4,623 bases of DNA, from IMG/VR virus record IMGVR_UViG_2698536443_000019. One strand, 5' to 3'. Made by a program: the position numbers and the translations under genes. Positions 333 through 3,033 of this stretch are shown here, in pieces. Position 1 is the stretch's first letter. The number at the start of each line of letters is the position of its first letter. This DNA is from a virus. Its lineage: Duplodnaviria > Heunggongvirae > Uroviricota > Caudoviricetes. Under the pieces are notes generated by a model, which did not search any database, was not told where the DNA came from, and saw only the letters and a program-made list of their open reading frames with translations.

Positions 333-344
333 ACGCTCCCGCCC
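333..344 (-). other. cosN-like cohesive-end site
   Basis: Minus strand reads GGGCGGGAGCGT-CGCGG-AAAAAGG, against lambda GGGCGGCGACCT-CGCGG-GTTTTCG as recalled. It lies 184-196 bp upstream of the candidate Nu1 start codons, versus about 190 bp in lambda. Confidence 0.5.
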
Positions 345-372: not shown

Positions 373-395
373 GACAGCCTGACAGCCTGACAGCC
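373..395 (+). repeat. Tandem 8-bp repeat (GACAGCCT x 2.9) in a GC-rich patch
   Basis: Directly visible: gacagcct gacagcct gacagcc. An 8-bp palindrome GGGGCCCC sits at 351-358. Confidence 0.6.
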
Positions 396-531
396 GTGAT
401 GAGCATCTGATACAGCGCTTTACATAATGGCATAGGAATAATTCAGAAGGACATCACAGCATGCCCACACAAATTAGTGTGAGTGTCCTGTTTCTTCCTA
501 CGCACAGGACTGACGAGCATGAGGGGAAAAT

Positions 532-699
532 ATGCGAACCATAAATGCCTCATCTTCAGCAATGCAACCGGCATCCGAACAGGACGATATTGTAAATTCA
601 CCTAATTACGAGGACATTGCAGTAGTTGAATTGCAGCTCTGTATTAGCCTGACAGTGACAGAATGCGATATTGACTCTGTCACAGGTGAAATAGTTTGA
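532..699 (+). CDS. Hypothetical small acidic protein (55 aa)
   Basis: ATG at 532 is preceded by GAGGGG with 6-nt spacing. Translation MRTINASSSAMQPASEQDDIVNSPNYEDIAVVELQLCISLTVTECDIDSVTGEIV, stop TGA 697-699. Below the 60-aa ORF-track cutoff. No recognisable family. Confidence 0.3.
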   Translation: MRTINASSSAMQPASEQDDIVNSPNYEDIAVVELQLCISLTVTECDIDSVTGEIV

Positions 700-719
700 A
701 TGATTAGCAGTTATGGTGC

Positions 720-926
720 TCAGTCAACCACCAGGGAATAATCCTTCGAATTCTTATCGTGCTTCACCAACGCTGCCTCAATTGCCCTGAATGCTTCCAG
801 AGACACCTGATGTTCTATACATGCAATTACAACATCCGGGTAACTCATAGAAATGGTGCTATTAAGCATATTTTTTACACGAATCAGATCCAACGAGACT
901 TCATCAGCAGATTGTTCTTTATTCAT
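720..926 (-). CDS. Hypothetical small protein (68 aa), unknown function; may correspond to a small Qin cargo gene such as ynfO
   Basis: ATG at 926-924 is preceded by GGAG with 7-nt spacing. The frame is closed upstream by a stop at 951-953, so 68 aa is the maximum. No family recognised. Confidence 0.5.
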
Positions 927-1226
927 TTTGTCGCTCCATGCGTTTGCTCGTCATCTAGCGGTTAAAATATTACTTCAAATCTTACTGCATAAAAGAGGAA
1001 AAGTATGAAAGTTTGAGTACATCGACCTTACATACATCTGTCGGTTGCATATCCCTCCTGGATGCCAGCAAGGCTCAATTTTGTTACGCAATCAACACTA
1101 TTCATTAAAAACAGGCTTAATATTTGACATAAATCATCAACAAAACACAAAGAGGTCAGACCAGATTGAAACAATAAACACGATAATGCTAACTACGCGC
1201 CATCGTATCACATGGAAGGTTTACCA

Positions 1227-1637
1227 ATGGCTCAGGCTGCCATTTTTAAAGAAATATTCGATCAAGTGCGTAAAGATTTAAACTGTGAATTATTTTATTC
1301 TGAGCTAAAACGTCACAATGTCTCACTTTATATTTACTATTTAGCCACAGATAATATTCACATTGTGTTAGAAAACGACAACATAGTGTTAGTAAAAGGA
1401 CTCAAAAAGGTTGTAAATGTTAAATTCTCCAGAAACAAACATCTTATAGAGACCTCCTATAATAAGTTGAAATCAAAAGAAATCACATTTCAACAATACA
1501 GGGAAAATCTTGCTAAAGCAGGAGTTTTCCGATGGGTTACAAATATCCAGGAACACCAAAGATATTACTATGCCTTTGATAACTCATTACTATTTACTGA
1601 AAGCATCCAGAAAACTACACAGATCTTACCACGCTAA
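1227..1637 (+). CDS. ydfO: DUF1398-family prophage protein (YdfO-like), 136 aa
   Basis: ORF 1212..1637 in the track. The second in-frame ATG at 1227 has GGAAGG 7 nt upstream, while the first ATG at 1212 has no SD. Sequence [18 protein letters not shown]... recalled as YdfO of Qin. Confidence 0.75.
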
Positions 1638-1645
1638 ACCATAAC

Positions 1646-1674
1646 GTCCGGCTTCTCTCACTCCTGAGCCGGAC
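1646..1674 (+). terminator. Perfect 8-bp inverted repeat downstream of ydfO (possible weak terminator or RNA stem-loop)
   Basis: GTCCGGCT-(13 nt)-AGCCGGAC starting 9 nt after the ydfO stop. The following T-tract is weak (tgcattggttt) and the loop is long. Confidence 0.3.
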
Positions 1675-2139: not shown

Positions 2140-2295
2140 TCAACTCAAGAGCCTTATTGCTGCTTCCAGAATTTCTTCTGAAGTAACATGTCGATCCGCG
2201 GCTACATAAATGACTTTATGATCTCCGGTCAGAGATGGAAACCCTGCGGCCATTACAGTAAGGTGTGTTTTTTCGCCATTTGGATATTCACGCAT
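2140..2295 (-). CDS. ynfN: Small cold-shock-associated prophage protein YnfN (51-aa form)
   Basis: In-frame ATG at 2295-2293 has GGAG 11 nt upstream and gives MREYPNGEKTHLTVMAAGFPSLTGDHKVIYVAADRHVTSEEILEAAIRLLS. Longer in-frame forms (ATG 2370, TTG 2412) lack an SD and run into the upstream terminator. Confidence 0.55.
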   Translation of the reverse strand: MREYPNGEKTHLTVMAAGFPSLTGDHKVIYVAADRHVTSEEILEAAIRLLS

Positions 2296-2412
2296 GATGG
2301 TGTTAACTCCAGTCATCGCTGGCACTACCACTGCTGGTTCAGAGTTAAAAAAAACTATGATTTTTTTCATGATGTTACCGTAGTATGTGAGTATCCATCG
2401 AATAGATACCAA

Positions 2413-2436: not shown

Positions 2437-2641
2437 TCATTTTCACTTTTTTAAATCCAACGACAGACGGCTGGCATTTAAGTATTGTGAAATATTATCA
2501 AATGTAATCATCATTGATTTACAAAAGATACATTTTGCCCCGAAAGGATTCATGTCAGAAACATCAAAAGATGATGTTCTATACTGGGAACCATGACAAC
2601 ACGGGCATCTAAAGTGAATATGGTTTGTAATATTGTCTACC

Positions 2642-2854
2642 TCAAAGCGCCACTACATGAACAGCGGCAGGACCTTTAGGTCCGTTCTCAATACCAAATT
2701 CAACTTCCTGATTCTCAGTTAATGTTTTGAAATCGTTGCTCTGAATTGCTGAGAAATGGACAAACACATCTTTGCTGCCATCTTTCGGCGTGATGAAACC
2801 AAAACCTTTTTCAGGGTTAAACCATTTCACTAAACCAGTCATTTTGTTAGACAT
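2642..2854 (-). CDS. cspI: Cold-shock protein CspI (CspA family), 70 aa
   Basis: [38 protein letters not shown]... carries the RNP1 (KGFGFI) and RNP2 (VFVHF) motifs. The RBS context AAAGGTAATAATT-ATG is cspA-like. Confidence 0.9.
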
Positions 2855-3033
2855 AATTATTACCTTTTGAAGAAATTAGCCCTTGGGCAGAATGGTCCGA
2901 AAAAAATATCAGAGAGAAAAACCAACAAGGAAATCTCAAGAGGTACAAATAATAAAATTATAACAATGACTGCTTCAGATAAATTTGTAACAAACCAGAA
3001 CACCATTAACGCATGATTAACCACCCATAGCAA
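2855..3033 (-). promoter_or_regulatory. cspA-type promoter with AT-rich upstream region and long (about 140 nt) 5' leader containing a cold-box-like element
   Basis: Minus strand: -35 TTGCTA (plus 3028-3033), 17-bp spacer, -10 GTTAAT (plus 3005-3010), compared with cspA TTGCAT/CTTAAT. Downstream TGGTTTGTTACAAA parallels the cspA cold box ACGGTTTGACGTACAGA. Upstream is AT-rich. Confidence 0.45.

What the first reader, a model, noticed from the sequence alone, without database searches (positions are those of the whole stretch)
532..926. Convergent pair of uncharacterised small ORFs (55 aa and 68 aa) between cos and ydfO
Both ORFs have good Shine-Dalgarno sequences (GAGGGG and GGAG) and end tail-to-tail only 20 bp apart with no terminator between them, so their transcripts would overlap antisense at the 3' ends. 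Neither matches a family I recognise. Small cargo genes at this late-region position are often superinfection-exclusion or host-modulating factors, which makes this the most plausible place for an undescribed small function.
Basis: partly seen in the sequence, partly recalled or inferred. Interest (0 to 1): 0.45.

Follow-up and report, generated by a model that had tools for sequence, protein, structure and literature searches.

The report
One known gene, one chance ORF
Of the two small tail-to-tail reading frames next to the phage DNA end, the 68-codon one is a real, already catalogued gene (YbcW / phage lambda p79, recently reported to set off a bacterial defence system), and the 55-codon one is most likely a chance reading frame.

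Summary
ORF55 (532-699, +) and ORF68 (720-926, -) exist, each has an SD-like motif, their stops are 20 bp apart, and no terminator-like site lies between them.

ORF68 is the orthologue of E. coli DLP12 YbcW and phage lambda p79 (91% amino-acid identity). It is 207 nt with an unbroken frame in 48/48 distinct homologous regions. Its core is under purifying selection (dN/dS about 0.1). It lies under an annotated CDS in every sampled E. coli genome record. A September 2026 preprint reports lambda p79 as the activator of the NADase defence system Vulcan; its function for the phage is still unknown.

ORF55 is intact only in a clade about 99% identical to the window. Every more diverged homologue breaks it, through a lost ATG, a stop at codon 2, 1-nt or 7-nt deletions, or a replaced 5' end, and so do some near-identical ones. 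It straddles the mosaic breakpoint at 574. It has no distant homologues, and no feature was annotated over it in any of 12 sampled RefSeq E. coli records. In lambda and DLP12 the convergent partner of ybcW is ylcI (DUF3950), which is absent here.

Verdict: already known plus a likely artefact; low interest.

The parts
720..926 (-). ORF68: orthologue of E. coli DLP12 YbcW and phage lambda p79 (68 aa). It is a real gene and the last gene on the late-transcribed strand before cos.
   Evidence: phrog_657 match, E 6.8e-47. 91% aa and 94.7% nt identity to lambda 47738-47944 (lambdap79) with no gaps. 207 nt with an unbroken frame in 48/48 distinct homologous regions; in two of them the stop codon is changed. 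dN/dS 0.08-0.13 for codons 23-68 in the most diverged pairs. Under an annotated CDS in all 11 sampled full-length E. coli matches.
934..937 (-). Shine-Dalgarno GGAG of ORF68, 7 nt upstream of the ATG
   Evidence: Read from the sequence. The segment is almost invariant in the alignment.
532..699 (+). ORF55: a 55-codon open frame, most likely not a gene. It is a chance ORF spanning a mosaic junction and the non-coding 3' flank of ORF68.
   Evidence: Intact in only 17 of 48 distinct homologous sequences, all at least 98.5% identical to the window. Elsewhere it is broken by ATG->ACG, CGA->TGA at codon 2, 1-nt deletions near 549, 590, 614 and 653, a 7-nt deletion at 568-574, or a replaced 5' end. 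Only 41 protein clusters match it, all close and of variable length. No feature annotated over it in 12 sampled E. coli records.
521..526 (+). SD-like GAGGGG before ORF55
   Evidence: Read from the sequence. It lies in the segment that is specific to this cos type and is altered in the 89%-identical lineages.
574..1656 (.). Mosaic block shared with lambda and DLP12 at about 89-90% identity. It contains the ybcW 3' flank, ybcW, the divergent intergenic region and ybcV. Its left edge at 574 falls in codon 15 of ORF55.
   Evidence: blastn of the window against lambda and DLP12. Identity by sub-region: 87% for 574-719 with 2 gaps, 94.7% for ORF68, 83% for the intergenic region, 92% for ybcV.
655..683 (.). 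Hairpin-forming inverted repeat GTGACAGA-N13-TCTGTCAC inside ORF55, in the 3' flank of ORF68. It is not followed by a T run.
   Evidence: Read from the sequence and present in the MFE fold. The fold of 560-725(-) is not better than shuffles, z = -0.45. No terminator call.
1150..1166 (-). Exact copy of the PdhR box ATCTGGTCTGACCTCTT reported between ybcV and ybcW in K-12
   Evidence: 0 mismatches, 0 expected by chance. PMC7660256 gives the box and reports a 9-10-fold drop of ybcV and ybcW mRNA in a pdhR mutant.
1212..1637 (+). Divergently oriented DUF1398 gene (YbcV / YdfO / lambda p78 family), the conserved neighbour of ORF68
   Evidence: Pfam PF07166, E 1.7e-43. Annotation of the O26:H11 record.
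343..344 (.). Position matching both deposited ends of phage Tritos. This is the approximate cos cleavage site if those ends are the true cohesive ends.
   Evidence: Both ends of OV696610.1 align up to window 344.

Best explanation
The finding contains one real gene and one chance ORF.

ORF68 (720-926, minus strand) is the orthologue of DLP12 YbcW and phage lambda p79. It is a small acidic protein predicted to fold as three helices. It is the last gene on the late-transcribed strand before cos, and it is paired divergently with the DUF1398 gene ybcV/ydfO. The intergenic region between them carries a PdhR box.

It is probably transcribed as the tail of the antiterminated late transcript (inferred from gene order). 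In a lysogen it is probably also transcribed from its own promoter, as shown for ybcW in K-12. It is a dispensable accessory gene.

The only activity shown for the family is that lambda p79 activates the NAD+-depleting defence system Vulcan. I infer that the protein works as a small helical binder of a host or phage partner, and that the copy here, 91% identical to p79, would be sensed in the same way. Neither inference is shown.

ORF55 (532-699, plus strand) is most likely not a gene. Its first 14 codons and its SD lie in the cos-proximal segment specific to Tritos-type phages. The other 41 codons run through the non-coding 3' flank of ybcW. The frame is open only in one very young clade. In lambda and DLP12 the convergent partner of ybcW is ylcI (DUF3950), a module this phage does not have.
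For: ORF68:
- 48/48 distinct homologous regions keep 207 nt and an unbroken frame; two of them have an altered stop codon.
- Nei-Gojobori dN/dS is 0.08-0.13 in codons 23-68 for the most diverged pairs. Variable sites in those codons fall 5/1/12 by codon position.
- phrog_657 match, E 6.8e-47.
- Same position as lambdap79, 47738-47944, and as ybcW b0559.
- Its DNA is present in 2009 of 5426 complete E. coli genomes, and the 11 sampled full-length matches all lie under a CDS.
- AlphaFold2 with a 9-sequence alignment gives pLDDT 78, about 90 for residues 11-50, with three helices.
- Literature: lambda p79 is deleted in 7 of 7 Vulcan escapers, and co-expression with Vulcan is toxic. p79 is listed as non-essential in the older literature. 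ybcW mRNA depends on PdhR and is induced by Hha. The PdhR box is exact in the window.

ORF55:
- At least six independent kinds of frame-breaking change occur. Some are in sequences 98-99% identical to the window. Others are in lineages 89% identical that are homologous across the whole ORF, including its SD and start.
- The homology breakpoint with lambda and DLP12 is at 574, inside the ORF.
- The region evolves like intergenic DNA: 87% identity with 2 gaps, against 94.7% with no gaps in ORF68.
- The word-indexed search of 5.8 billion proteins gave only 41 close clusters of variable length.
- No Pfam, NCBIfam or PADLOC hit.
- No annotation over it in any of 12 sampled records among the 1994 E. 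coli genomes that carry the DNA.
- No similarity to YlcI or YnfO.
Against: - ORF55 has a good SD-like motif at proper spacing, is intact in 17 distinct sequences, and matches a PHROG family (phrog_4035). A very young, clade-specific small protein therefore cannot be excluded from sequence alone.
- Polymorphism within the intact clade (6 nonsynonymous, 3 synonymous) is too sparse to tell neutrality from weak constraint.
- The N-terminal 22 codons of ORF68 evolve almost neutrally.
- The Vulcan result is from a single preprint, concerns lambda p79 and not this allele, and says what senses the protein, not what the protein does for the phage.
- No expression data exist for this window.
Confidence: 0.85

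Rival explanations
1. ORF55 is a real but very young small gene, born de novo at the junction between the Tritos-type cos module and the ybcW flank. It would be translated in this clade only.
For: SD-like GAGGGG 5 nt before the ATG. Intact in 17 distinct near-identical sequences. Gene callers predict it in some phage and genome records: phrog_4035 and a few 'hypothetical protein' entries.
Against: Sequences 98-99% identical already carry a 1-nt deletion, or ATG->ACG plus a 7-nt deletion. This shows that loss is tolerated at very short evolutionary distance. No homologue outside the clade keeps the frame. No feature was annotated over it in any of 12 sampled RefSeq records. The 6:3 nonsynonymous to synonymous polymorphism looks neutral. 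Chance ORFs of this length are frequent in the window.
Confidence: 0.07
2. The sequence under ORF55 (574-719) is a functional non-coding element: the 3' UTR or a weak terminator of ybcW, a small RNA, or a cos-related protein-binding site. The open frame would be incidental.
For: The segment belongs to the block conserved with lambda and DLP12. It contains the 8-bp-stem hairpin at 655-683. It also holds a third copy of AGCCTGACAG, a 10-mer repeated in tandem at 376-393, 33-50 bp from the inferred cos. A machine-learning study of lambda coevolution flagged two intergenic mutations downstream of lambdap79 as lowering infection efficiency.
Against: Identity to lambda is 87% with indels, no higher than the neighbouring intergenic DNA. 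The fold is not more stable than shuffles, z = -0.45. No Rfam match. No terminator-like site.
Confidence: 0.2
3. ORF68 and ORF55 form a convergent regulatory pair (an excludon, or a type I toxin-antitoxin-like antisense arrangement) in which the overlapping 3' ends control each other.
For: In K-12 the orthologous ybcW and the convergent ylcI are listed among convergent excludons detected by RNA-seq. No terminator separates the two ORFs here.
Against: The K-12 partner, ylcI, is absent from the window and unrelated to ORF55. Only one weak promoter-like site was found in 150-1300, and it is on the other strand. The ORF55 frame is not conserved. ORF55 has no hydrophobic toxin-like segment (sequence).
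Confidence: 0.05

Closest known systems
Phage lambda p79 (lambdap79, NP_597782.1, 47738-47944) and E. coli K-12 DLP12 YbcW (b0559)
   Same: ORF68 has the same 68-aa length, 91% amino-acid identity and the same neighbours. It is divergent from a DUF1398 gene, with the same PdhR box between them, and it is the last gene on the late strand before cos.
   Different: The N-terminal residues 9-12 and a few C-terminal residues differ. Downstream, lambda and DLP12 carry ylcI followed by a lambda-type cos with Nu1/NohD. Here a different cos segment and a DUF1441-type small terminase follow.
YlcI / YnfO (DUF3950), the convergent partner of ybcW in DLP12 and lambda
   Same: It occupies the position and orientation that ORF55 has here: a small ORF convergent with ybcW, between it and cos.
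   Different: There is no sequence similarity to ORF55 or to any frame of the window. YlcI is basic and has a Pfam family. ORF55 has no family beyond near-identical copies.
p79-like genes of phage satellites (P0305 in L170/L171; P0200 in L168)
   Same: They share the YPDVV.ACI...VS.E.F.AIEA.L core at 41-54% identity. In L170 the gene ends about 45 bp before a lambda-like cosQ/cosN/cosB region and a Nu1 homologue, so it too is the last gene before cos.
   Different: They sit in small satellite-like elements (DUF927 primase, PerC, E- and D-like capsid genes; or AlpA and a Rep protein) without a ybcV neighbour. Their N-terminal and C-terminal tails differ.
Phage proteins that trigger abortive-infection defence systems, here Vulcan
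   Same: By orthology, ORF68 is expected to be the protein sensed by the NIR-NADase system Vulcan.
   Different: This was not tested for this allele. Being a trigger says nothing about what the protein does for the phage.

Membership tests
YbcW / lambda p79 family (PHROG 657) | Full-length sequence similarity to family members | tested here: met
   phrog_657 E 6.8e-47 over residues 1-68 of 68. 91% identity to lambda p79 and YbcW.
YbcW / lambda p79 family (PHROG 657) | Reading frame conserved and under purifying selection across homologues | tested here: met
   48/48 distinct regions keep the 207-nt frame unbroken. dN/dS 0.08-0.13 in codons 23-68 for the most diverged pairs.
YbcW / lambda p79 family (PHROG 657) | Genomic position: late strand, divergent from a DUF1398 gene, last gene before cos | tested here: met
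YbcW / lambda p79 family (PHROG 657) | Activates the Vulcan NADase defence system | not testable with these tools
   Reported for lambda p79 only (bioRxiv 10.64898/2026.09.04.749371).
PHROG 4035 (ORF55-like predicted proteins) | Sequence match to the family profile | tested here: met
   E 1.2e-41 over 1-55 of 55. The relatives found in protein databases are all near-identical.
PHROG 4035 (ORF55-like predicted proteins) | A real protein family should keep its reading frame in diverged homologous DNA | tested here: not met
   The frame is broken in 31 of 48 distinct homologous sequences, including every one less than 98% identical.
DUF3950 (YlcI / YnfO) | Sequence similarity to PF13132-type proteins at the position convergent with ybcW | tested here: not met
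   No Pfam hit for ORF55. No blastp hit to YlcI or YnfO, and no meaningful tblastn hit of either in the window.
Convergent excludon (ybcW-ylcI type) | Two real convergent genes with overlapping transcripts | tested here: not met
   The second gene is missing and ORF55 is not conserved. Transcript overlap itself cannot be tested here.
Rpp (PICI redirecting-phage-packaging proteins) | Protein of 144-153 aa with an N-terminal winged-HTH similar to Nu1 | tested here: not met
   ORF68 is 68 aa and all-helical with no beta hairpin. It has no sequence match in the PDB. The Rpp description is from PMC6739421.

The most novel reading that the evidence does not exclude
The YbcW/p79 family could be a cos-linked accessory factor. 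It is a small three-helix protein kept as the last gene before cos in lambda, in DLP12, in Tritos-type phages with a different terminase, and in a capsid-encoding satellite at only 41% identity.

From my own knowledge, not tested here, the right end of lambda DNA is packaged last and injected first. This gene would then be among the first DNA to enter the cell. The family may act very early as an anti-defence or host-takeover binder, or it may act in packaging at cos. Vulcan may have evolved to guard against it.

None of my evidence excludes this reading, and none demonstrates it.
Probability: 0.15. Interest if true: 0.5.

Novelty: already known. Interest (0 to 1): 0.15.

Why it matters
There is little new here.

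- ORF68 is a catalogued gene, ybcW / lambdap79. Its only reported activity, triggering the Vulcan NADase system, was described in a 2026 preprint.
- ORF55 should not be carried forward as a candidate small protein.

Three modest points are useful:

- The analysis identifies this prophage's copy of the reported Vulcan trigger.
- The family is narrow: Escherichia lambdoid phages plus a few satellites. It is always placed just upstream of cos.
- Frame-conservation analysis over a mosaic junction can separate a real small gene from a chance ORF only 20 bp away from it.

Tried and rejected
- Pfam, NCBIfam and PADLOC scans of both peptides gave nothing above threshold.
- PDB sequence search for ORF68 found nothing.
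- Single-sequence AlphaFold2 of ORF68 was poor, pLDDT 66. With a 9-sequence alignment it reached pLDDT 78.
- The exhaustive HMMER search of 1.84 billion representatives gave 164 hits. Nearly all are error-ridden copies of the lambda sequence. Only P0200 and P0305 are truly diverged homologues.
- The profile search with A1 again listed only close hits.
- The scan of species-representative genomes returned only Escherichia plus lambda contamination in unrelated taxa.
- A degenerate DNA pattern for the satellite-type motif found nothing in IMG/VR.
- I considered that ORF68 might be related to PICI Rpp because of its position next to cos. I rejected this on size and fold.
- I considered that ORF55 might be a degenerate ylcI/ynfO and rejected it.
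- I considered an RNA element in 574-719. There is no Rfam hit and no thermodynamic signal.
- Searching papers for both peptide strings found nothing.
- The lambda ribosome-profiling paper I remember (Liu et al., PNAS 2013) is not in the searchable library. Direct translation evidence for p79 was therefore not checked.

Full report
**What the window is.** The window is the right end of a lambdoid prophage, drawn in the opposite orientation to the lambda map.
- It is 99.9% identical to a prophage of E. coli O26:H11 str. 11368 and 99.5% identical to phage Tritos.
- The lysis genes rrrQ and rzpQ/rzoQ, then cspI, ynfN and gnsB, lie on the minus strand. This is the late-transcribed strand.
- A DUF1398 gene of the YbcV/YdfO family lies at 1212-1637 on the plus strand.
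- The start of a DUF1441-type small terminase gene lies at the left edge.
- Both deposited ends of the Tritos genome map to window 343/344. If those ends are the true cohesive ends, cos is there.

**Checking the observation.** The finding's coordinates are correct.
- ORF55 runs from ATG 532 to TGA 697-699. GAGGGG sits at 521-526, 5 nt upstream of the ATG.
- ORF68 runs on the minus strand from 926 to 720. GGAG lies 7 nt upstream of its ATG.
- The stop codons are 20 bp apart.
- The consensus scan found no terminator-like site in 150-1300. It found only one weak promoter-like site, on the minus strand.
- A 55-codon ORF is not remarkable here. The window holds at least eight other ORFs of 55 aa or more that PGAP does not annotate in the near-identical O26:H11 record.

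**ORF68 is a real gene and a known one.**
- It matches phrog_657 over its full length, E 6.8e-47.
- The block 574-1656 is 89-90% identical to phage lambda and to the K-12 DLP12 prophage. Within it, ORF68 corresponds exactly to lambdap79 (NC_001416 47738-47944, plus strand) and to ybcW (b0559).
- Identity to lambda is 94.7% at the nucleotide level with no gaps, and 91% at the protein level.
- I collected homologous regions from IMG/VR through both peptides. They collapse to 48 distinct sequences including the window.
- ORF68 is 207 nt with an unbroken frame in all 48. In two of them the stop codon is changed, giving a short extension.
- Nei-Gojobori estimates for the most diverged pairs give dN/dS of 0.08-0.13 for codons 23-68, with dS 0.19-0.33. 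The first 22 codons evolve nearly neutrally, at 0.8-1.5. Variable sites in codons 23-68 fall 5/1/12 by codon position.
- The DNA occurs in 2009 of 5426 complete E. coli genomes. The 11 sampled full-length matches all lie under a CDS called 'hypothetical protein' or 'protein YbcW'.

**How wide the ORF68 family is.** The family is narrow.
- An exhaustive HMMER pass over 1.84 billion representative proteins gave 164 hits at E 0.001 or better.
- Nearly all of those are frameshifted, error-ridden copies of the lambda sequence, from contigs of about 3.5 kb. I believe these derive from the lambda control DNA used in sequencing. That attribution is my own knowledge and was not tested.
- Hits in Veillonella, Pseudomonas, Streptomyces and other unrelated genomes are likewise 91-99% identical, so I read them as lambda or E. 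coli contamination.
- Two hits are truly diverged: P0200 (54% identity) and P0305 (41%). They keep the core YPDVV.ACI...VS.E.F.AIEA.L.
- Both are encoded in small satellite-like elements.
- In L170/L171 the gene order is DUF927 primase, PerC, an E-like capsid gene, a D-like decoration gene, the p79 homologue, and then a Nu1 homologue (E 5.6e-42 to a phage small terminase chain, 6hn7_B).
- The 260 bp between the p79 homologue and the Nu1 homologue align with the DLP12/lambda cosQ-cosN-cosB region.
- So in lambda, in DLP12, in Tritos-type phages with a different terminase, and in this satellite, the family member is the last gene on the late strand before cos.

**Structure of ORF68.**
- AlphaFold2 with a 9-sequence alignment gives mean pLDDT 78, about 90 for residues 11-50. 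It predicts three helices, at 5-21, 25-38 and 43-60.
- Foldseek against PDB and BFVD found nothing.
- From the sequence, the protein is acidic: 11 Asp/Glu against 7 Lys/Arg.
- The fold suggests a protein-binding module but does not point to a function.

**What the literature says about the family.**
- A September 2026 preprint (bioRxiv 10.64898/2026.09.04.749371) reports on lambda-vir escapers of the NIR-NADase defence system Vulcan. All seven had lost lambdap79, probably by recombination with the Qin prophage of MG1655. Co-expressing lambdap79 with Vulcan was toxic, so p79 activates Vulcan.
- This fits my comparison. K-12 Qin is homologous to the window only from 1149 onward. It carries ynfO where ybcW would be.
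- A CRISPRi map scored lambdap79 as 'essential', while listing the earlier literature as non-essential. I read the knockdown effect as a polar effect on the late transcript that continues across cos. That reading is my inference.
- In K-12, PdhR binds a box between ybcV and ybcW, and both mRNAs fall 9-10-fold in a pdhR mutant. The exact 17-mer is present at window 1150-1166.
- Hha binds the region and induces ybcW 17-fold in biofilm cells.
- ybcW-ylcI is listed among convergent excludons.

**ORF55 is most likely not a gene.** The frame is intact in only 17 of the 48 distinct sequences, and all 17 are at least 98.5% identical to the window. The other sequences break it in different ways.

| Sequence group | Identity to window | What breaks ORF55 |
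|---|---|---|
| L132, L133 | about 99% | 1-nt deletion near 590 |
| L130, L135 | about 98% | ATG->ACG plus a 7-nt deletion at 568-574; L135 also has a 1-nt deletion near 653 |
| L128, L131 | more than 99% over the shared part | recombinant junction replaces the start |
| L151, L152, L153, L154, L141, L159 | 86-90% | TGA at codon 2 and a 1-nt deletion at 614 |
| L165, L163, L160, L162, L164, L155 | about 89% | ATG->ACG and two 1-nt deletions |
| lambda / DLP12 type | about 87% from 574 on | homology begins at 574; an in-frame TGA lies upstream and another lies three codons before the end |

- The groups at 86-90% identity are homologous across all or most of the ORF. In the about-89% group, homology extends upstream past the SD and start. 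In the same sequences the ORF68 core has dN/dS of about 0.1 or lower.
- The breakpoint of homology with lambda and DLP12 at 574 falls in codon 15.
- In lambda-type sequences, the same frame upstream of 574 is the C-terminus of YlcI...TSIKSDEE*.
- Segment 574-719 is 87% identical to lambda with two gaps. That resembles the ybcV-ybcW intergenic DNA (83%) and not the coding regions (92-95%).
- The word-indexed search of 5.8 billion proteins found only 41 clusters. All are close and of varying length and coverage, as expected for chance ORFs called on slightly different DNA.
- ORF55's DNA is present in 1994 complete E. coli genomes, but none of the 12 sampled records has a feature annotated over it.
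- Within the intact clade there are 6 nonsynonymous and 3 synonymous polymorphisms. That is compatible with neutrality but has little statistical power.
- The PHROG match, phrog_4035, reflects gene callers predicting the same near-identical ORF in some phage records.

**The convergent partner elsewhere.**
- In DLP12, ybcW is followed 164 bp downstream by the convergent gene ylcI (DUF3950).
- Lambda carries an ORF 100% identical to YlcI at complement(48109..48303). It is not annotated in J02459 or NC_001416.
- The window has no ylcI or ynfO homologue, and ORF55 is unrelated to them.

**Alternatives for the DNA under ORF55.**
- It contains an 8-bp-stem hairpin at 655-683. It also holds a third copy of AGCCTGACAG, a 10-mer repeated in tandem at 376-393, 33-50 bp from the inferred cos.
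- A machine-learning study of lambda coevolution flagged intergenic mutations downstream of lambdap79.
- Against a functional element: the fold is not better than shuffles, z = -0.45. There is no Rfam hit, no terminator call, and no extra conservation.
- A modest cis-acting role, such as a 3' UTR or a cos-accessory site, remains possible.

**Verdict.**
ORF68 is a real, already known gene of the YbcW / lambda p79 family. It is a dispensable accessory gene, its lambda orthologue is a reported Vulcan trigger, and its function for the phage is unknown.
- ORF55 is most likely a chance ORF created where a Tritos-type cos module joins the ybcW flank.
- Novelty: already known. Interest: low.
- The one thread worth following is the consistent placement of this family as the last gene before cos, including in a satellite at 41% identity. 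That hints at an early-entry or packaging-linked role that nobody has tested.

Noticed in passing
L167 (NC_001416) 1813-2004, i.e. lambda complement(48109..48303); also L003 200-391: Phage lambda carries an ORF 100% identical to E. coli YlcI (DUF3950, 64 aa), convergent with lambdap79 and about 200 bp from cos. It is not annotated in J02459 or NC_001416.
   Followed up: partly
L170 5001-5207 and 5208-5470 (also L171); L168 273-464: Diverged p79/YbcW homologues (41-54% identity) sit in satellite-like elements. In L170 the gene ends about 45 bp before a lambda-like cosQ/cosN/cosB region and a Nu1 homologue, downstream of E-like and D-like capsid genes.
   Followed up: partly
window 376-385, 384-393, 646-655: There are three exact copies of AGCCTGACAG, against 0.54 expected for the 9-mer core with one mismatch allowed. 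Two are in tandem 33-50 bp from the inferred cos, and one is inside ORF55 next to the 655-683 hairpin. They may be a terminase-binding or accessory-protein site.
   Followed up: no
window 1150-1166 (-): An exact copy of the PdhR box reported between ybcV and ybcW in K-12. This suggests that this prophage's ybcV/ybcW pair is wired to the host pyruvate regulator as well.
   Followed up: partly
P0027-P0120 (ENA contigs of about 3.5 kb); L172-L207: Thousands of 'proteins' and many contigs assigned to unrelated taxa (Veillonella MAG, Pseudomonas, Streptomyces, Cohnella, even the plant Dovyalis caffra) are lambda right-end sequence, 91-99% identical. They probably derive from lambda control DNA. They inflate the apparent size and taxonomic spread of this family.
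   Followed up: partly
window 2615-2999 (-): Rfam cspA thermoregulator match (114 bits, E 1.3e-29) spanning cspI (2642-2854) and its upstream leader. This is an expected feature of the prophage cold-shock gene.
   Followed up: no
window 2140-2412 (-): The ynfN reading frame is longer here than in K-12. PGAP annotates 76 aa in O26:H11 (phrog_3425), against 51 aa in K-12 (phrog_4911). The start codon choice differs between annotations.
   Followed up: no
window 1212-1637 (+): The DUF1398 protein (YbcV / YdfO / lambda p78) gives a weak PADLOC hit to a type II restriction enzyme model (E 3e-4, residues 29-109). The lambda orthologue is variously annotated as 'putative envelope protein' or 'head protein'. 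Its function appears to be unknown.
   Followed up: no
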